Source: Chiloscyllium plagiosum
Lineage: Eukaryota
Length of the DNA: 20,000 nt
Reading direction: 5' to 3'
Assembly (NCBI RefSeq): GCF_004010195.1
Contig: NC_057719.1
Location: forward strand, 21,751,492 to 21,771,491
Shown here one piece after another: positions 22 to 15,529 of this stretch. Every line of letters starts with the position of its first letter. The first letter of the stretch is position 1. The position numbers and the translations under genes were made by a program. The notes under the pieces were generated by a model. That model was not told the DNA's origin, searched no databases, and saw only the letters and a program-made list of their open reading frames with translations.

Positions 22-61
22 GCAAACGTTTCGTCCTCTGTCTAGGTGACATCCTCAGTGC
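22..61 (-). ncRNA. Minimal type-I hammerhead ribozyme in PLE pLTR
   Basis: Minus strand reads gca-CTGAGGA-t-gtcacc-tagaca-gaggac-GAAAC-GTT-tgc. It has the CUGANGA/GAAA core, stem I gca/tgc, an imperfect stem II and a palindromic AAACGTTT stem III. Confidence 0.75.
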
Positions 62-167: not shown

Positions 168-310
168 NNNNNNNNNNNNNNNNNNNNNNNNNNNNNNNNN
201 NNNNNNNNNNNNNNNNNNNNNNNNNNNNNNNNNNNNNNNNNNNNNNNNNNNNNNNNNNNNNNNNNNNNNNNNNNNNNNNNNNNNNNNNNNNNNNNNNNNN
301 NNNNNNNNNN
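168..310. other. Assembly gap (143 N)
   Basis: Run of N. Confidence 1.
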
Positions 311-1004
311 AGTGGTCACAGTAGTCTGGCTGTCATTTTAGAGATGTTCTTGATGTATGGTAGTGTGGCTAGACCTTTGGGTTGTGGCATGTCCTCGTTC
401 TGTTGTCTTTCCCTTAGGCATCTGTTGATGAAATTGCGTGGATATCCATTTTTTGCGAATGCCTTGTATAGGTGTTCCTTTTCCTCTTTTTGCAGTTCTG
501 GTGTGCTGCAGTGTGTTGTGGCCCTTTTGAATGGTGTCTTGATGCAACTTTGTTTGTGTGTATTGGGGTGGTTACTTTCATAGTTCAGGACTTGGTCTGT
601 GTGTGTGGCTTTCCTGTGTACCTGCATGTAGCATTATTCCTGCATGTAGCTCTTGATTTTCCTTATTTACTTGATTTAGATAAATATGTATGTACCCTTT
701 ACACTTCAAATGTTCATGGCCAGATTACTAACAGAAGACAAAGATTACAAAAATGTCAGGTTATCTTCATGTGAAAAGGTCCTGGAAGAAAATATAATGC
801 ATATATATTTGTACAAATGAGAAAGTAAACAAATACTTTACAAATGTTAACACATTAAATTGTGATCCTCTTACACAGAATTGGTATATGTATTAGGTGT
901 CAGTTACAGAAAAATTCTATCTTCAAAAGATTTTAAAATAACCTTCAGGTTTTTTAATGTTTATGCCCTGCTCTTACATGTCTTCACTCTTGGTGTTTTC
1001 TGAG

Positions 1005-5644: not shown

Positions 5645-6005
5645 CCATAAGACAATAAGATGTTGGAGCAGAAGTCAGTCCTTCACGACTGACATGGCTA
5701 ATGTGATAATCCTCAACTCCACTTTCCTGTCTCTTCCCCATAACCCTTAATTCTCATATTAAAGAAAAATCTGTCTGTTTTAGCCTTGAATGTACTAAGT
5801 AACCCACCATCAATAGAAAGTCCTCCTTATCTCTATTTTAAATGTGTGACACCTTATTCTGAGATTATGCCCTGTGGTCCTAGACTGAGCCACAAGGGGA
5901 AATAACTTTTCCGCATCCAGTGTGACAATTCCCCGAAGAATTTTGTATGTTTCAATAAGGTTGCATCTCATTCTTTGATATTCCAATGACTATAGGCTCA
6001 ATCTG
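5645..6005 (-). mobile_element. CR1 LINE 3' fragment (different subfamily)
   Basis: ccataagacaataag tail, ccccataaccctt and gagattatgccctgtggtcctagac (RGHNL motif on the minus strand). Confidence 0.75.
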
Positions 6006-6023
6006 GATTGTGAAGGAACAAAA

Positions 6024-6902
6024 ATGGCATTTAGAAGTTTACGGGTTACTGAGGATTATGTCTGCAATAAATGCAATTGGTTGCGAATCCTATCAGATCG
6101 ATTGGATCAGTTGGAGAGACAGTCAGAGGCAACGAAGAATTTACAAGAGCAAGGGGATGTGAGGGATGGCAGTCACAGTAAAGGGGGAAAGTCACAGACA
6201 CAGTCACATAGATGGGTTAACTCCAGGAAAGGTAAGAGAGGTAGAGGCAGTTAGTGCAGGAGTCTTCTGTGGTCAACCCCATTTAAAACAAGTATGCTGT
6301 TTTGGAAAATGTTAGGGTGATGGATTCTCAGGGGAACATAGCACGAACATTCTGGTATTGAAACTGGCACTAATGCAATGAGGGGTACGTCGGGTTTCAA
6401 GAGGTCAATTGTGTTAGGGGACTCTCTTGTCTGACGTACAGACAGACGTTTCTGTGGCCAGCAGCAAAAAATCAGAATGGTGTGTTGCTTCCTTGGTGCC
6501 AGGATCAAGGATGTCTCAGAGAGGGTGTAGAATGTTCTCAAGGGGGAGAAAGGCATTGTACACATTGGAACAAACGACATAGAAAGGGAAAAGGTTGAGA
6601 TTCTGAAGGGAGATTACAGAGAGTTAGGCAGGAACTTAAAAAGAAGGTTCTCGAGAGCAGTAATATCTGGATTACTTCCAGTGCTATGAGCTAGTGAGGG
6701 CAGGAATAGGAGAATAGAGCAGATGAATGCATGGCTGAGGAGCTGGTGCATGGGAGAAGGATTCACATTTTTGGATCATTGGAATCTCTTTTGGGGTAAA
6801 AGTGACCTGTACAAGAAGGATGGATTGCACCTAAATTGAAAGGGGACTAATATACTTGCAGTGAGATTTGCTAGAGCTGCTCAGGAGGATTTAAACTCGT
6901 AA
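6024..6902 (+). pseudogene. CR1 ORF1p: partial zinc finger plus SGNH/GDSL esterase
   Basis: YVCNKC; VLGDSLV (~6411); CFLGARIKD; VHIGTNDI (~6557); DGLHLN (~6820). Broken by stops and frameshifts. Confidence 0.88.
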
Positions 6903-7323
6903 GGTGGTGGATGTGACCCAGGGAGATAGTGAGGAAAGAGATCAATCTGAGACTGGAACAGTTGAGAACAGAAGCGAATCAAACAGTCAGGGCAGGTAGG
7001 GACAAAGTAGGACTAATAAAATAAAGTGCATTTATTTCAATACAAGGAGCCTAACAGGGAAGGCAGATGAACTCAGGGCATGGTTAGGAACATGGTACTG
7101 GGATATCATAGTAGTTACGGAAACATGGCTCAGGGATGGTCAGGACTGACAGCTTAATGTTCCAGGATACAAATGCTACTGGAAGGATAGAAAGGGAGGC
7201 AAGAGAGGAGGGAGAGTGGTGTTTTTGATAAGGGATAGCATTACAGCTGTGCTGAGGGAGGATATTCCTGGAAATACATCCAGGGAAATTATTTGTGTGG
7301 AACTGAGAAATAAGAAAGGAATG

Positions 7324-7594
7324 ATTAGATTACTTACAGTGTGGAAACAGTCCCTTCGGCCCAACAAGTCCACACCGACCCTTTGAAGATCAAACCACCC
7401 AGACCTATTCCCCTACACCTAACACTACGGGCAATTTAGCATCGCCAATTCACCTAACCTGCACATCGTTGGATTGTGGGAGGAAACTGGAGCACCCAGA
7501 GAATGTGCAAACGCCACACAGACAGTTGCCCGAGGCAGGGATTGAACCCGGGTCTCTAGCACTGTGAGGCAGCAGTGCGAACCACTGTGCCGCC
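7324..7594 (-). mobile_element. tRNA-derived HE1-like SINE inserted in the CR1 endonuclease domain
   Basis: Minus strand has a ggcggcacagtggtt head, a gggttcaatccc B box and a CR1-like tail gtgtggacttgttgggccgaaggga...ttccacactgtaagtaatctaa. CR1 sequence resumes at caccttattggg. Confidence 0.9.
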
Positions 7595-9637
7595 TGCACC
7601 TTATTGGGATTGTATTATAGACCCCCCTAATAGTCAGAGAGAAATTGAGAGACAAATTTGTAAGGAGATCTCAGTTATCTGTAGGAATAATAAGATGGCT
7701 ATAGGAGGGGGTTTTAACTTTCCGAACATAGACTGGGACTGCCGTAGTGTTAAGGTTTAGATGGAGACGAATTTGTTAAGTGCGTACAAGAAAATTTTCT
7801 GATTCAGTATGTGGATGTATCTACTAGAGAAAATGCAAAACTTGACCTACTCTTGGGAAATAAGGCAAGGTGTCAGTGGGGGAGAACTTTGGGGCCGGCG
7901 ATCGTAATTCTATTCGTTTTAAAATAGTGATGGAAAAGGATAGACTAGATATAAAAGTTAAAGTTCTAAAGTGGAGAAAGGTCAATTTTGACAGTATTAG
8001 GCAAGAACTTTCAAAAGCTGATTGGGAGCAAATGTTTGCAGGTAAAGGGACGGCTGAAAAATGGTAAGCCTTCAGAAATGAGCTAACGAGAATCCAGAGA
8101 AAGTATATTCTTGTTAGGGTGAAAGGAAAGGCTGGTAGGTATAGGGAATGCTGGATAACTAAAAAAATTGAGGGATTGGTTAAGAAAAAGAAGGAAGCGT
8201 ATTTCAGGTATAGACAGGATAGATCGAGTGAATCCTTAGAAGAGTATAAAGGCAGTAGGAGTATACCTAAGAGGGAAATCAGGAGGGCAAAATGGGGACA
8301 TGAGATAGCTTTGACAAATAGAGTTAAGGAGAATCCAAAGGGTTTTTACAAATGCGTTAAGGACAAAAGGGTAACTCGGGAGAAAATAGGACCTCTCAAA
8401 GATCAGCAAGGCAGCCTTTGTTTGGAGCCGCAGAAAATGGGGGAGATACTAAACGAGTATTTTGTATCAGTATTTACTGTGGAAAAGGACATGGAAGATA
8501 TACAATGTAGGGAAACACATGGTGACATCTTGAAAAATGCCCATCTTACAGAGGAGGAAGTGTGTAAAAGTGGATAAATCCCCAGGACCTGATCAGGTGT
8601 ACCTGAGAACTCTGTGGGAAGTTAGGGAAGTGATTGCTGGACCTATTACTGAAATATTTGTTTCATCGACAGTCACAGGTGAGGTGCCAGAAGACTGGAA
8701 ATTGGCTAACGTGGTGCCACTGTTTAAGAAAGGTGGTAAGGACAAACCAGGGAACTATAAAACAGTGAGCCTGACGTCAATGGTAGGCAAGTTGTTGGAC
8801 GCAACCCTGAGGGACAGGATGTACATGTATTTGGAAAGGCAAGGACTGATTAGGGATAGTCAACATGGCTTTGTGCGTGGGAAATCATGTCTCACAAACT
8901 TGATTGAGTTTTATGAAGAAGTAACAAAGAAGATTGATGAGGGCAGAGCAGTAGATGTAATCGATATGGACTTCAGTAAAGCATTTGACAAGGTTCCCCA
9001 TGGGAGACTGGTTAGCAAGGTTAGAGCTCATGGAATGAAGGGAGAACTGGCAAAATATCCTATCTCTTACAGGAGAAGATTGGAACTGTGCCTGTGGGGT
9101 TTTAAGGCACCCAAGTCCTGACACACAGGTGGTGGAGGGTTGTTTTTCAGACTGGAGGCCTGTGACCGCAGGACTTATACACTTAATGGTAAGGTCCTAG
9201 GGAGTGTTGCTGAACAAAGAGACCTTGGAGTACAGGTTCATAGCTCCTTGAAAGATATGATAGTGAAGAAGGTGTTTGGTATGCTTTCTTTTATTGGTCA
9301 GATTTTTGAGTACAGGAGTTGGGAGGTCATGTTGCAGCTGTACAGGACATTGGTTAGGTCACTGTTGGAATATTGCATGCAATTCTGGTCTCCTTCATAT
9401 CGGAAAGATGCTGTGAAACTTGAAAGGATTCAGAAAAGGTTTACAAAGATGTTGCCACAGTTGGAGAATTTGAGTTCTAGAGAGAAGCTGAACAGGCTGA
9501 GGCTGTTTTCCCTGGAGTGTCAGAGGCTGAGGGGTGACCTCATAGAGGTTTACAAAATCATGAGGGGCATGGATAGGATAAATAGACAAAGTATTTTCCC
9601 TGGGGTGGGGGAGTCCAGAAGTAGAGGGCATAGTTTT

Positions 9638-9715
9638 AGGGTGGGAGGGGAAAGGTATAAAAGAGACCTCAGGGGCAGGGTGGGAGGGGAAAGGTATAAA
9701 AGAGACCTCAGGGGC
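9638..9715 (+). repeat. Perfect 39-bp tandem duplication in CR1 ORF2
   Basis: agggtgggaggggaaaggtataaaagagacctcaggggc occurs twice (RVGGERYKRDLRG x2). Confidence 0.97.
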
Positions 9716-9957
9716 AATGTTTTCCACGTAGAGGGTGGTACGGGTATGGAATGAGCTGCCAGAGGAAGTGGTGGAGGCTGGTACAATTGCAACATTTAAA
9801 AGGAATTTGGATGTGTATATGAATAGGAAGGGTTTGGAGGGATATGGGCCAGGTGCTGGCAGGTGGGACTGGATTGGTTTGGGATATCTGGTTGGCATGG
9901 ATGGGTTGGACTGAAGAGTCTGTTTCTGTGCTGTTCATCTCTATGACTCTATGACTG

Positions 9958-10065
9958 TAACTGTGGATTCTGGAAATCTGCAACAAAAACAGAAATTGCT
10001 GGAGAAACACAGAAGGTCTGGAAGCATCTGTGGATATAAACAGACTTAATGTTTCAGAACTCAGT
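9958..10065 (-). mobile_element. Neptune-type PLE pLTR terminal fragment; a short inverted remnant follows at ~10709-10730
   Basis: actgtggattctggaaa...tgctggagaaacacagaaggtctggaagcatctg...gtttc aligns with 11573-11665. gactggctgagcttttcca is the inverted remnant. Confidence 0.7.
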
Positions 10066-10101
10066 CTTTAAGTTACCTCACTGAGTTTGAAAGTTTGTTA
10101 T

Positions 10102-10139
10102 CAGACTTTTCATCACCATACTAGGTAATATAATCAGTG
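10102..10139 (-). ncRNA. Mutated hammerhead (inverted partner of 10575-10614)
   Basis: Minus strand reads ca-CTGATTA-t-attacc-tagtat-ggtgat-GAAAA-GTC-tga, with two core substitutions. Confidence 0.6.
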
Positions 10140-10574
10140 GGAGTCTCTGGTGAAGTGCTGGTCATATGTCCTGCCTCTCTATTTATAGGTCTTGGCTTCT
10201 TAAGGTGGGTGATGTCATTTCTGACTCGTTTTTCAAGGGAAGATAGATAGGATCTAAGTTGATGTGTCAATTGATGGAGTTCTGGTTAGAATGCAATGCC
10301 TCTAAGAATTCTTGTGCATGTCTTTGTTTCGCCTGTCCTCGGATGTGTATGTTGTCCCAGTCAATTTGGTGTCATTCTTTGTCTGTATGTATGAAAACTA
10401 GTCTTTTGGTGGCCAGTTGGTATTCATGTATCATGGTGGCAAGCTTCCTGCTAGTTTGTCCGATGTAGTGTTTTTTTTTACTGTTCTTGCATGGTATCTT
10501 GTAAACGACATTAGTTTTGCTGGTGATATCTAAAAAAAAGAACCAGAATGACACCAATGCTTCACCAGAGACTC

Positions 10575-10614
10575 TCACTGATGATGTTACCTAGTATAGT
10601 GATGAAACGTCTGA
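10575..10614 (+). ncRNA. Minimal type-I hammerhead ribozyme with a canonical core
   Basis: tca-CTGATGA-t-gttac-ctagtata-gtgat-GAAAC-GTC-tga. Stem I tca/tga, stem II gttac/gtgat, palindromic ACGT, GUC cleavage triplet. Confidence 0.85.
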
Positions 10615-10774
10615 AAACAAACCTTCCAGCTCAGCGAGCTAACTTACAGACTTATCATCAACCTGAGTTACAAATCTTCTCAAAAGTGATTTCAGAACTC
10701 AGTTTAGCACAGACTGGCTGAGCTTTTCCACTCTACTGCTACTTACTGGAGTTATATCGAGGCAAATATCTACT

Positions 10775-11005
10775 AGCATTGGGAGCAGTCCAGAGAAAGT
10801 TAACCAGGCTGATACTAGGTATGACCATATGTACTGAATAGGGCCATTCAACCTCTTGAACCTGAGATGTTGATCTGTAGTCTAACTCCATGCACGCGCT
10901 TTCAGCCCATTTCCCTTAATACCTTTGCTTAACAAAATTTTATTGGACTCAGACTTAAAATTAACAACTGACCTAGTATCCACTGCTGTTCATGGAACAG
11001 AGTTT
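10775..11005. mobile_element. Two small CR1 fragments (10775-10822 plus; ~10823-11005 minus 3' end)
   Basis: gcagtccagagaaagttaaccaggctgata (~VQRRFTRLI), then ggccattcaacc...cccttaatacc resembling a CR1 3' end on the minus strand. Confidence 0.55.
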
Positions 11006-11159: not shown

Positions 11160-11562
11160 ACAAAATCTTGTCTTTCAGTAGTGCTTTTAGCATAATGAAG
11201 CATCCCATGTCATTTCACAGGAATGTCATTTTAACACCAAGCTACTTAAGGTGATACTCGGGCACGTTGACAAAACTTGAGTCTGAGATACGTTTTAAGC
11301 AGAATATTAAGGGACAAACAAAGTAGTAGAGATGGAGATATTTAGAGAATGAATTCAAAGGTTTGGTCCAAGGGAACTGAAGGCATTCAGGCACAATTAG
11401 GATCAGGACTTCAAAGTACATTGTTAGACATGAGTGTTTATCTAATTGTTTTTGGGACGTGTAAGATTAAAGAGATGGGAAGGGCTGAGGTCATGAAGGG
11501 ATTTAAAGCCAGGGTGAGAATTTTAAAATTGATGCACAACATAACTGGGAACAAACGTAGGT
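11160..11562 (-). mobile_element. Degraded L2 LINE 3' portion, interrupted by the PLE
   Basis: Minus strand LFPVMLCINFKILTLALNPF (~LHWLPVxxRIxFKIL), similar to the reverse complement of 1340-1560 and 2100-2200. Confidence 0.65.
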
Positions 11563-11653
11563 AAAACCAATGACTGCAGATGCTGGAAACCAGATTCTGG
11601 ATTAGTGGTGCTGGAAGAGCACAGCAGTTCAGGCAGCATCTGAGGAGCAGTAA

Positions 11654-11690
11654 AATTGATGTTTCGGGCAAAAGCCCTTCATCAGGAATA
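11654..11690 (-). ncRNA. Minimal hammerhead ribozyme in the Neptune pLTR
   Basis: Minus strand reads attc-CTGATGA-a-gggc-tttt-gccc-GAAAC-ATC-aattt. Perfect 4-bp stem II; stems I and III look eroded by CpG decay. Confidence 0.8.
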
Positions 11691-11717
11691 CAGGCAGAGA
11701 GCCTGAAGGGTGGAGAG

Positions 11718-11919
11718 NNNNNNNNNNNNNNNNNNNNNNNNNNNNNNNNNNNNNNNNNNNNNNNNNNNNNNNNNNNNNNNNNNNNNNNNNNNNNNNNNNN
11801 NNNNNNNNNNNNNNNNNNNNNNNNNNNNNNNNNNNNNNNNNNNNNNNNNNNNNNNNNNNNNNNNNNNNNNNNNNNNNNNNNNNNNNNNNNNNNNNNNNNN
11901 NNNNNNNNNNNNNNNNNNN
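11718..11919. other. Assembly gap (202 N)
   Basis: Run of N. Confidence 1.
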
Positions 11920-13870
11920 TCTGCTAGGAGGCGCTCAGTCTCCCCAATGTAGAGGAGACCGCATCGGGAGCAATGGATACAATAAATGATATTAGTGGAT
12001 TTGCAGGTAAAACTTTGATGGATGTGGAAAGCTCCTTTGGGGCCTTGGATGGAGGTGAGGGAGGAGGTGTGGGCGCTGGTTTTACAGTTCCTGCGGTGGC
12101 AGGGGAAAGTGCCAGGATGGGAGGGTGGGTCGTAGGGGGGCGTGGACCTGACCAGGTAGTCACGGAGGGAACGGTCTTTGCGGAAGGCGGAGAGGGGTGG
12201 GGATGGAAATATATCCCTGGTGGTGGGGTCTGTTTGGAGGTGGCGGAAATGTCGGCGGATGATTTGGTTTATGCGGAGGTTGGTAGGGTGGAAGGTGAGC
12301 ACTAGGGGCGTTCTGTCCTTGTTGCGGTTGGAGGGGTTGGGTCTGGGGGCGGAGGTGCGGGATGTGGATGAGATGCGTTGGAGGGCATCTTTAACCATGT
12401 GGGAAGGGAAATTGCGGTCTCTAAAGAAGGAGGCCATCTGGTGTTTTCTGTGTGGAACTGGTCCTCCTGGGAGCAGATCCGGCGGAGGCGGAGGAATTGG
12501 GAATACGGGACGGCATTTTTGCAAGAGTTAGGGTGGGAAGAGGTGTAATCCAGGTAGCTGTGGGAGTCGGTGGGTTTGTAGATGATGTCAGTGTCAAGTC
12601 GGTCGTCACTGATGGAGATGGAGAGGTCCAGGAGGGGGAGGGAGGTGTCAGAGATGGTCCAGGTAAATTTAAGGTCAGGGTGGAATGTGTTGGTGAAGTT
12701 GATGAATTGCTCAACCTCCTCGCGGGAGCACAAGGTGGCGCCAATGCAGTCATCAATGTAGCGAAGGAAGAGGTTTGGAGTGGTGCCAGTGTAATTACGG
12801 AAGATCGACTGTTCTACATAGCCAACAAAGAGACAGGCATAGCTCGGCCCATATGAGTGTCCATTGGTCTGGAGGAAGTGGGAGGATTTGAAGGAGAAAT
12901 TGTTAAGGGTGAGGACCAGTTCGGCCAAACGAATGAGAGTGTCGTTGGAAGGGTACTGTTGGGGACGTCGGGAGAGGAAGAAATGGAGGACTTGGAGGCC
13001 CTGGTCATGGCGGATGGAGGTGTAGAGGGATTGGATATCCATGGTGAAGATGAGGCGTTGGGGGCCGGAAAAACGGAGGAATTGGAGGAGGTGGAGGGCA
13101 TGGGTGGTGTCTCAAACGTATGGGGGGAGTTCCTGGATTAGGGGGAATAGGACAGTGTCGAGGTAGGTAGAAATGAGTTCAGTGGGGCAGGAGCATGCTG
13201 AGACAATGGGTCGGCCAGGGTGGTCAGGCTTGTGGATCTTGGGAAGGAGGTAGAACCGGGCAGTGTGGGGTTCCCGAACTGTGAGGTTGGAAGCTGTGGG
13301 TGGGAGATCTCCTGAGGTGATGAGGTTCTGTATGGTCTGGGAGATGATGGTTTGGTGATGGGGGGTGGGGTCATGATCGAGGGAGCGGTTGGAAAAGGTG
13401 TCATCGAGTTGGCGTTTGGCTTCAGCAGTGTGGAGGTCAGTGCGCCAGACTACCACTGCGCCCCCTTTATCTGCTGACTTGATGGTGAGGTCGGGATTGG
13501 AGCAGACGGAGTGCGGGGCTGCGCGTTGTGAGGGTGGGAGTTTGGAGTGGGGGAGAGGTTGAGGCGGTTAATGTCCTGGCGGCAGTTGGAAATGAAGAGG
13601 ACGAGGGCAGGTAATAGGCCAGCGCAGGGTGTCCAGCTGGACGGAGTGTGTTGGAGCCGGGCGAAGGGGTCCTCGGAAGCTGGGCAGAAGTCCTGATTGT
13701 GAAAGTAAGCTCGGAGGCGCAGGCGGTGGAAGAAGTGTTTGACGTCACAGCATGTATGAAATTCATTGATGCGTGGACAGATGGTGATGAAGGTGAGTCC
13801 TTTGCTGAGGACTGATCGTTCATCCTCAGTGAGGGGAAGGAATGGGGGGATGGTGAAAACTCGGCAGGGC
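11920..13870 (-). pseudogene. PLE RT / GIY-YIG polyprotein, disrupted
   Basis: Pieces lie in ORFs 13450..14088, 13112..13456, 12302..13042 and 11682..12524. In-frame TGA at 13112-13114; frameshifts near 13550 and 12450. Confidence 0.9.
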
Positions 13871-14010
13871 TGAGAGCTGGGTTCTGGTGAGGGTGTGGAG
13901 CTGGGAGTGGGGGAGGAGCCTGTAACTGGAGTGGGTGTGGTGGTGGGGAGAATGGGGGTGGAGTCATGAGCAGGGGTGGTGTTCCCCTCAGGGTTCTGGG
14001 GGGCGGGGAC

Positions 14011-14665
14011 AAATGTACACCAGAGAGCATGCTGGAGATAAGTGGATGACCCTTGCATAAGGATACTGAAATCAGTGTATGGGAACACCTCTAATGTTTA
14101 CAGATGATAGGATATTGGAGACAGGTCAGGAGCTTAGTAGTTAATTCTAGGGGGAACATAAGCACGGATGATGTTATCAGCAGCAAATGGATTGTACAGA
14201 AGTGAAGTCAAGCAATATTATGAGGAAGAAAAAGAAGGTCTTGGTGATAGGTCAAATATATATTTTGAAGCTCATCCAATATGTCAAATAAAGATGCAAA
14301 ACATCTAATTTAATCCAGACTGTTGTCAGGGAGGTGATGCTGTCAGTAGCTAAGCAATAGAGTTTGGAGAAGGGCCAAAATCAATGGCTTTAATCTTTAC
14401 AATACTTAAACAGAAGTAAATTACTGCTCACCAAAGACTGGATGTCTGATAATTTAGTAAGTGCTAAGTAGTCAAAGCAATAATGATGTGATAAAGCCTG
14501 GTGGACATCAATGTGCACGTAGAGACTGAAACTGTACTTTTGAACAAATACAGCAATGAGAAATAGGAAGGGTGTGGACTTGTTGGGCCGAAGGGCCTGT
14601 TTCCACACTGTAAAGTAATCTGTAAAGTAATCTAAAAAGGGGTTAAGGACCATTGATCTTGCAGA
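14011..14665 (-). mobile_element. Degraded L2 LINE, RT region (continues 11160-11562)
   Basis: Minus strand FSLYVHIDVHQ (~FHMYADDTQ) and LSDIQSLVSSNLL (~LSDIQxWMSxNFL). 14640-14662 resembles QGSVLGP. Confidence 0.65.
14570..14636 (+). mobile_element. HE1-like SINE 3' tail only, nested in L2
   Basis: gtgtggacttgttgggccgaagggcctgtttccacactgtaaagtaatctgtaaagtaatcta; aaggg flanks both sides (14568, 14637). Confidence 0.8.
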
Positions 14666-14773
14666 AAACTGGTGACAGGAAATGAAAGGGAACCATTCTA
14701 GCTATGAATCAATTATATGAATGAAATCAGTGAAGTGTAGATTACCTTACTACATGACAGTGCAGGGTTATGA

Positions 14774-14900
14774 GGAGAAAGTGAGGACTGCAGATACTTG
14801 AGATCAGAGTCGAAAGTACAGTGGTGGAAAAGCACAGCCGGTCAGGCAGCATCTGAGGAGCAGGAGACTCAATGTTTCTGGCATAACCTTTCATTGGAAT
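14774..14900 (-). mobile_element. Solo Neptune-type pLTR fragment with decayed HHR
   Basis: Aligns with 11570-11690 (gactgcagat...caggcagcatctgaggagcag...atgtttc.ggca...tcat.ggaat). Confidence 0.8.
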
Positions 14901-15529
14901 ATTGAATGGATTTCCTAAAACAATTGCTGCAGAGAGGTTAAGAAGGAATAAGGAGGAATAGTTTGCCTTTAACATAAAATGTTCCTGCTGAGGACCATTT
15001 TGGAACAGAGCTACTGGCAAAAAATCTGATTGCACTGAGTTTCAGGAGATGGACTTGAGAAATAACAACACATTCATGACCTTATGAGAAGAAATGGCCA
15101 TTAGAACTGGATTAGGTTCAATTACTTTTACTGAAGAAAAGGACAGAAAAAAATGGCAACAGTAGTTCAAAGTGTGATAACTTCCTTAACTTCCTTTTTT
15201 TAAGCACAGTTTTCATCTGATTGTGGGCCTTTGCATCTAGGTTCAGAAAGTGTAACCAGTTCTTTGTCATGACTATTCATTACAGGATGGCAGTCTAACT
15301 ATGTGGCAGTGGAGAGGGGCTTACAACAAAGAAAAGATTATAGTAAGGAAGAGAGGTCCAGAAAGACCCATCTGGGAAATCAGTTTGCAGTTCCTGATTC
15401 TCCATTTATTAATTTAACTCTCGTCAAACGTCACTGATTAATACTCACCTGACCTGGCATCTCACTGAGCACTGTTTCTTCCTGGAAATGCTCTATCAGA
15501 GAATTGGCCCCAGAATCAACATGCAAAGT

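What the first reader, a model, noticed from the sequence alone, without database searches (positions are those of the whole stretch)
10575..10614. Intact-core minimal hammerhead ribozyme in a Penelope pLTR
Seen: tca-CTGATGA-stem II-GAAAC-GTC-tga with all core nucleotides, a GUC triplet and a palindromic ACGT stem III. Established: PLE pLTRs carry minimal type-I HHRs thought to act as dimers (Cervera & de la Pena 2014). Inference: this is the best candidate here for an active self-cleaving RNA, cutting 3' of C10611, and it could cut any plus-strand read-through transcript.
Basis: partly seen in the sequence, partly recalled or inferred. Interest (0 to 1): 0.72.

Follow-up and report, generated by a model that had tools for sequence, protein, structure and literature searches.

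The report
Decayed hammerhead in mirror-image Penelope insertion
This is a real miniature hammerhead-ribozyme motif in the mirror-image end of an old, broken Penelope-type jumping gene in a shark-like genome, a known feature of such elements; this copy has a weakened stem and is predicted to be tied up by its own mirror partner, so it likely no longer cuts RNA.

Summary
The motif is real: intact core, GUC, palindromic ACGT; 2 exact cores in the window against 0.01 expected. It lies in the inverted pLTR arm (10553-10685, +) of a 624-bp, 5'-truncated Penelope/Poseidon-type insertion (10066-10689) with a 14-bp target duplication, a broken GIY-YIG remnant and a second, core-mutated hammerhead on the minus arm: the known layout. 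'Best candidate for activity' is not supported. Stem II has G-U instead of G10.1-C11.1 and has lost a pair that 94-96% of family depth keeps. Stem I is 3 bp. The window has no same-strand partner for a dimer. The arms differ by 15%, so an intact core needs no selection (about 0.27 by chance). A plus-strand read-through RNA is predicted to pair the motif with the other arm (-125 kcal/mol duplex). No RNA read matched this locus at 99% in about 2% of one run, and a read-end pile-up at 10611 vanished at lower stringency. No cleavage assay was possible. Earlier scan notes report the same kind of element many times in this and other shark-like genomes. Verdict: ordinary relic of a known class.

The parts
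10052..10065 (.). Left copy of 14-bp target-site duplication
   Evidence: Identical to 10690-10703; 0 of 3000 draws of random 40-nt window pairs reached 14, longest 11
10066..10209 (-). 3' pLTR of the element in its own sense, with TATAAA whose first base is 10187; 10066-10162 is the part shared with the inverted arm
   Evidence: Inverted repeat I1; 82 of 97 columns identical; TATAAA position
10101..10140 (-). Second hammerhead relic, core changed at G8, 10.1 and 15.2; predicted dead
10210..10524 (-). C-terminal GIY-YIG endonuclease remnant with two in-frame stops and a 5-residue gap
   Evidence: Translation; 65% and 69% identity to P0001 and P0002; tblastn 10141-10533 E 7e-40; weak GIY-YIG Pfam hits on the homologues, below cut-off
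10525..10552 (.). Inversion junction, unassigned; weak likeness to the TATA region of the other arm, no intact TATAAA
   Evidence: junction spanned without difference by a contig of run X2 (record 12)
10553..10649 (+). Inverted pLTR arm that carries the finding
   Evidence: family alignments begin at 10551-10553
10575..10614 (+). Minimal type-I hammerhead motif: core 10578-84 and 10604-11, extra U 10585, stem II 10586-90/10599-603, stem I 10575-77/10612-14, predicted cut after 10611
10650..10685 (+). 36-nt tail present on this arm only (10686-89 unassigned)
   Evidence: Family copies end in two clusters, at 10648 and 10685 (table 7)
10690..10703 (.). Right copy of 14-bp target-site duplication

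Best explanation
The motif is the minimal hammerhead in the inverted end repeat of a 624-bp, 5'-truncated Penelope-like insertion with a 14-bp target duplication, and this copy is likely an inert passenger that has decayed since it was inserted. Shown: the layout, the broken endonuclease, the 15% difference between arms, the weakened stem II, and that both arms run through the predicted cut site. Inferred: one event copied the element's RNA twice, head to head (endonuclease end plus pLTR on one strand, pLTR plus tail on the other), from RNA that was not cut at the hammerhead. In the active parent element the motif would cut only weakly, as a dimer through the ACGU palindrome or with help from the element's protein. 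Here a plus-strand RNA from upstream would fold back on the other arm, and an RNA starting inside the insertion would lack a partner and a stable stem II.
For: TSD, inverted arm and one-sided 36-nt tail match the published layout (PMC3846280, PMC8557442, passages). Endonuclease remnant with stops. Arms: 15 mismatches in 97, K2P 0.175; a crude neutral chance that 15 core positions survive half that distance is 0.27, and the sister arm did lose its core. A at 10598 breaks a C-G pair: G in 96% (X2), 95% (X10), 95% (X23) of depth and 167 of 177 RNA reads. Stem II hairpin -0.9 kcal/mol against -5.1, -2.4 and -6.5 for the other three relics. Family CpG sites inside the core are decaying: 10604 9%, 10608 20%, 10609 33% of X2 depth. 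Only plus-strand candidate among 4 in a fuzzy scan. Arm duplex -124.6 kcal/mol; stem II pairing probability at most 0.001 for RNAs starting at or before 10200; 0.91 mean probability that motif bases pair with the other arm's region. RNA run X21: 0 of 144 and 0 of 249 laid reads at 99% identity; sense-direction depth 164 just before and 180 just after the cut site.
Against: The core is fully intact and five stem II pairs remain. U at 11.1 is the majority in family DNA laid on this copy (C in 45% of X2, 41% of X10 depth) and both arms have it, so G-U may come from a source element that transposed and need not be post-insertion decay; the U-G pair at 10588/10601 is also the family state. The predicted dimer is only 6.3 kcal/mol above two free monomers for the bare 46-mer. 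Folding programs ignore core tertiary contacts, proteins and co-transcriptional order. RNA evidence is thin: about 2% of one 3'-biased, poly(A) single-cell run, which is poor for seeing cut ends. The size of the rate loss from G10.1-U11.1 is recalled, not measured or read here.
Confidence: 0.85

Rival explanations
1. The copy still cuts weakly when transcribed from a start inside the insertion (10200-10550), pairing in trans through its ACGU palindrome with another family RNA, or helped by the element's RT-endonuclease protein.
For: Intact core and palindrome; family RNA is present in run X21 (249 reads); the lizard element's hammerhead cuts when protein is added (PMC11167929, passages); helix II can be much reduced in engineered hammerheads if G10.1-C11.1 stays (PMC544870, passages).
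Against: This copy lacks that G-C pair; predicted stem II pairing is only 0.01-0.07 even without the other arm; no intact TATAAA in front of the plus arm; no read from this locus.
Confidence: 0.1
2. The host has kept this hammerhead under selection as a processing or regulatory site in a plus-strand transcript.
For: Core intact in an insertion that probably predates the split of organisms A and B (record 7); the other arm's core is lost.
Against: Neutral survival is about 0.27; stem II has lost a family pair; no host exon among 110 open frames scanned; fold-back predicted.
Confidence: 0.03
3. The match is chance.
For: No Rfam hammerhead hit; folding z-score 0.11.
Against: 0.01 expected by shuffling; same motif at the same place in the sister arm and in a related element at 25-58, with stem I U-A replaced by G-C and a stem II U-G replaced by C-G; over 13,000 contigs of one run lie on the arm.
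Confidence: 0.01

Closest known systems
Minimal hammerheads (min-HHR) of metazoan PLE pLTRs, incl. fish Poseidon, Neptune and Xena (Cervera and De la Pena 2014, PMC4209133; parts 1-2 of 4 read, supplement file 2 searched)
   Same: Type-I topology, no stem III beyond a palindrome at 15.2-16.2, extra nucleotide between 9 and 10.1, long stem II, position in a pLTR, mostly single copies; paired motifs on opposite strands 100-700 bp apart are described there too.
   Different: The paper calls G10.1-C11.1 highly conserved; here it is G-U. Helix I there is 4-5 bp in the Schistosoma families (2 bp in Drosophila virilis), here 3 bp. No shark entry for four search terms in supplement file 2; file 1 could not be searched.
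EN+ Penelope insertions with inverted 5' pLTR, 30-40 bp tail and TSD (Adineta Pen2a, PMC3846280; Craig 2021, PMC8557442; passages read)
   Same: 5' truncation, adjacent inverted pLTR, tail on one end only (36 nt), target duplication.
   Different: Only the endonuclease end was copied (624 bp); TSD is 14 bp against 8-10 bp in the rotifer examples read.
Anolis Poseidon element PAc (Frangieh 2024, PMC11167929; passages read)
   Same: Penelope/Poseidon-type element with hammerhead in the pLTR; uncut RNA is the main insertion substrate, which fits both arms here spanning the cut site.
   Different: PAc is intact and assayed (hammerhead cuts only with protein); this copy is a broken remnant with no assay.

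Membership tests
PLE minimal hammerhead (min-HHR) | Core C3-A9, G12-A15.1, U16.1, H17 intact | tested here: met
PLE minimal hammerhead (min-HHR) | Extra nucleotide between 9 and 10.1 | tested here: met
   U at 10585
PLE minimal hammerhead (min-HHR) | Palindrome at 15.1-16.1 in place of stem III | tested here: met
   ACGT 10607-10
PLE minimal hammerhead (min-HHR) | Stem II present, with pair changes across families | tested here: met
   5 contiguous pairs; no X2 variant at 4% or more in 10586-91 or 10599-602; U-G against C-G in the 25-58 copy
PLE minimal hammerhead (min-HHR) | G10.1-C11.1 pair (typical trait, not part of the paper's descriptor) | tested here: not met
   G-U here; C in 41-65% of family depth or reads
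PLE minimal hammerhead (min-HHR) | Located in a pLTR | tested here: met
Active self-cleaving ribozyme | Cleavage after H17 as monomer or dimer | not testable with these tools
   No assay; read ends inconclusive
Active self-cleaving ribozyme | Same-strand partner nearby for a cis dimer | tested here: not met
   Only plus-strand candidate in the 20-kb window; beyond the window not seen
Rfam hammerhead families | Match to a covariance model | tested here: not met
   No hammerhead hit
EN+ Penelope-like element | C-terminal GIY-YIG endonuclease joined to a reverse transcriptase | tested here: met
   Remnant matches P0001 and P0002; P0002 has RVT_1 above cut-off, GIY-YIG weak; the remnant alone had no Pfam hit
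EN+ Penelope-like element | Direct or inverted pLTRs, tail, TSD | tested here: met
Penelope/Poseidon clade | No zinc-finger linker between RT and endonuclease; RT phylogeny | tested here: inconclusive
   No cysteine motif visible in the linker of P0001 and P0002 (read by eye; criterion from PMC8557442); linker absent from this copy; no tree built
Non-LTR retrozyme | Tandem repeats, each unit with a hammerhead | tested here: not met
   No tandem array here; definition from bioRxiv 2026.07.22.740005, part 1

The most novel reading that the evidence does not exclude
Intact-core relics like this one form a genome-wide pool of weak cut sites that work in trans, pairing through the ACGU palindrome with family RNA or the element's protein, and the mirror-image insertion layout switches them off: fold-back pairing hides the motif and A-to-I editing rewrites stem II (A>G excess in RNA runs at 10589 and 10596).
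Probability: 0.06. Interest if true: 0.5.

Novelty: new member of a known kind. Interest (0 to 1): 0.1.

Why it matters
Little on its own: it is one decayed copy of a very abundant, described motif. It does show that an intact hammerhead core in a repeat-rich vertebrate genome is weak evidence of activity, and that both arms were written from RNA spanning the cut site, in line with the in-vitro finding that uncut RNA is the insertion substrate. The open question of what PLE hammerheads do is better tested on young family copies than on this one.

Tried and rejected
Read-end pile-up: at 93% likeness, run X21 showed 5 molecule ends at 10611 against depth 15, from reads of another copy with its own flank. 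At 80% the table of ends was empty, and reads with that flank rose from 14 to 45 with a longer aligned part. It is another locus, one base off the expected 10612 start, in a library not suited to mapping ends: not counted as cleavage. Run X22 laid 0 reads (no test). No RNA holder was listed for the stretch; not used as evidence. No whole genome is held, so copies could not be counted or phased; two metagenome pattern scans found 0. Allele shares from contigs are depth-weighted, favour this copy's letters and are not copy numbers. Rfam, solved-structure search (only chance-level hits) and Pfam on the remnant gave nothing. The promoter/terminator scan is for bacteria and was ignored. Pfam on 110 of 110 open frames of 42 aa or more outside the coding remnants found no host exon, only two LINE-type hits and one weak stray hit, all below cut-off, so host transcription direction is unknown. 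Absolute probabilities of the monomer fold were not used, since every minimal hammerhead scores poorly as a monomer. A paper search for rate effects of a G-U closing pair gave nothing usable. Lunse et al. on dimer cleavage is not held; only its title was seen in a reference list.

Full report
Observation. The window reads TCA-CTGATGA-T-[stem II]-GAAAC-GTC-TGA at 10575-10614. In hammerhead numbering (recalled convention) C3 is 10578, A9 10584, G10.1 10586, 11.1 10603, G12 10604, C17 10611. The exact core pattern occurs 2 times in the window against 0.01 in 200 shuffles. Rfam gave no hammerhead family and the 40-mer folds no better than shuffles (z 0.11).

Context. The motif lies in one arm of an inverted repeat: 10553-10649 against 10162-10066, 82 of 97 columns identical, K2P 0.175. 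Between the arms the minus strand encodes the end of a GIY-YIG-type endonuclease with two stops in 105 codons. A search of longer proteins returned 2 hits among 25 candidates, both Stegostoma proteins, at 65% and 69% identity; P0002 has an RT domain above cut-off and both have weak GIY-YIG hits below cut-off. The read-through end of P0001 also aligns to the plus arm across the motif (E 8e-05), tying this pLTR to that RT-endonuclease family. No zinc-finger linker is visible in these proteins, which points to the Penelope/Poseidon clade by the criterion in PMC8557442; no tree was built. A 14-bp duplication flanks the unit at 10052-65 and 10690-703 (0 of 3000 random draws reached 14), giving a 624-bp insertion. 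The plus arm runs 36 nt further than the minus arm, and family copies end in two clusters at 10648 and 10685. This is the published layout: truncated copy, adjacent inverted pLTR, one-sided 30-40 bp tail, TSD (PMC3846280, PMC8557442). Contigs of run X2 span the left junction, the inversion junction and the right junction with 0, 0 and 1 differences (records 10, 12, 15; this run may be the assembly's source). A contig of organism B covers 10662-10875 with 12 differences and 1 gap (record 7), but has only 28 letters on the insertion side, under the tool's 31-letter rule, so a shared old insertion is likely, not proven. That the host is a shark-like fish is inferred from the homologues.

Family comparison. 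With no genome held, I laid four runs on 10545-10695 at 80% likeness: 13,153 contigs (X2), 12,725 (X10), 1,811 (X23) and 249 reads (X21). In X2 all 22 changes at 4% or more are in the printed table; in the motif they fall on N7, the loop, 10598, 10603, 10614 and the CpG positions 10604, 10608, 10609. So core and stem II are conserved in the family apart from CpG decay (9%, 20%, 33%). This copy has A at 10598 where 94-96% have G, which breaks the sixth stem II pair. At 11.1 it has U; C is seen in 45%, 41%, 53% and 65% (X2, X10, X23, X21). Both arms carry U, so this may be inherited from the source element; that counts against calling it private decay. These shares are depth-weighted and lean towards this copy's letters.

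Is it the best candidate? A fuzzy scan found 4 relics in the window. Stem II hairpin energies: this copy -0.9, sister arm -5.1 (core broken), 25-58 minus -2.4 (core intact, GUU, G10.1-C11.1), 11658-85 minus -6.5 kcal/mol (AUC, no stem I). Modelled as a homodimer, this copy lies 6.3 kcal/mol above two free monomers, the 25-58 copy 1.3. It is the only plus-strand relic, so there is no cis partner within the window. If the arms were identical at insertion, a crude neutral chance that 15 core positions survive is 0.27, so an intact core needs no selection.

Read-through transcripts. Any plus-strand RNA from upstream, for example from the LINE remnant that ends near 9950, contains the antisense arm 390 nt before the motif. 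The duplex is predicted at -124.6 kcal/mol; stem II pairing falls to at most 0.001 for starts at or before 10200 and is 0.01-0.07 for later starts. The plus arm has no intact TATAAA in front; its clear homology starts 25 nt after the first base of the TATAAA of the minus arm. In about 2% of one poly(A) single-cell run no read matched at 99% (0 of 144; 0 of 249), and sense-direction depth shows no step at the cut site (164 before, 180 after). This is weak: small share, 3' bias, and 37% of those reads have a G12 change. The 5 ends at 10611 came from another copy and did not survive the looser lay.

Mechanism. Shown: layout, breaks, stem II state, both arms spanning the predicted cut. Inferred: the element's protein nicked both strands 14 bp apart and its RNA was copied twice head to head, from RNA not cut at the hammerhead (a re-ligated circle would look the same). 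The 'uncut template' reading was prompted by earlier scan notes and agrees with PMC11167929, where hammerhead mutants insert normally and cleavage needs the protein. PMC4209133 found no cleavage for a single min-HHR and low cleavage for dimers. The copy is therefore most likely inert (0.85); weak cleavage in trans is the main rival (0.10).

Novelty. The motif class and insertion layout are in print. A shark-specific description was not found by four terms in supplement file 2 of PMC4209133 (file 1 not searchable and may bear on this); a 2026 preprint includes one chondrichthyan among genomes with type-I hammerhead repeats. Paper searches run. Earlier scan notes describe many such copies in this genome, with counts of 70,000-160,000 that I could not check.

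Papers seen: PMC4209133 main text parts 1-2 of 4 and a supplement search; bioRxiv 2026.07.22.740005 part 1 of 5 and passages; passages only of PMC11167929, PMC8557442, PMC3846280, PMC6765202, PMC5625713, PMC2837043, PMC544870; Lunse et al. title only.

Noticed in passing
window 10581-10615 (family reads laid on it): A>G is more frequent in RNA-type runs than in DNA runs, e.g. 10589: 26% (X21), 7.8% (X23) against 0.5-0.6%; 10596: 30%, 4.5% against about 1%. Possible A-to-I editing of fold-back family RNA; alleles of a few expressed copies could explain X21, X23 is only guessed to be RNA, and the excess also shows in the opposite read direction. Lizard Penelope is already reported as heavily edited (PMC5625713, passage).
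   Followed up: partly
window 9955-10065: The insertion target is itself the 3' part of a pLTR of a second family, like 11560-11700 and 14765-14915; likeness stops at its GAAAC, next to the target duplication.
   Followed up: partly
window 25-58 (-), with 310-621 (-): Related Penelope element with intact core, GUU triplet and G10.1-C11.1 but two stem II mismatches; thumb-region remnant 58% identical to P0001. A better, still doubtful, candidate.
   Followed up: partly
window 11658-11685 (-) and 11920-14100 (-): Second-family hammerhead with a perfect 4-bp G-C stem II but AUC, broken palindrome and no stem I, behind a long RT-endonuclease remnant with a cysteine-rich linker (Neptune-like, label recalled).
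   Followed up: partly
window 5979-9950 (+): Long decayed LINE (esterase-like, endonuclease and RT pieces) with an exact 39-bp tandem duplication at 9638-9716.
   Followed up: no
window 168-310 and 11718-11919: Runs of N, both inside Penelope-like remnants.
   Followed up: no
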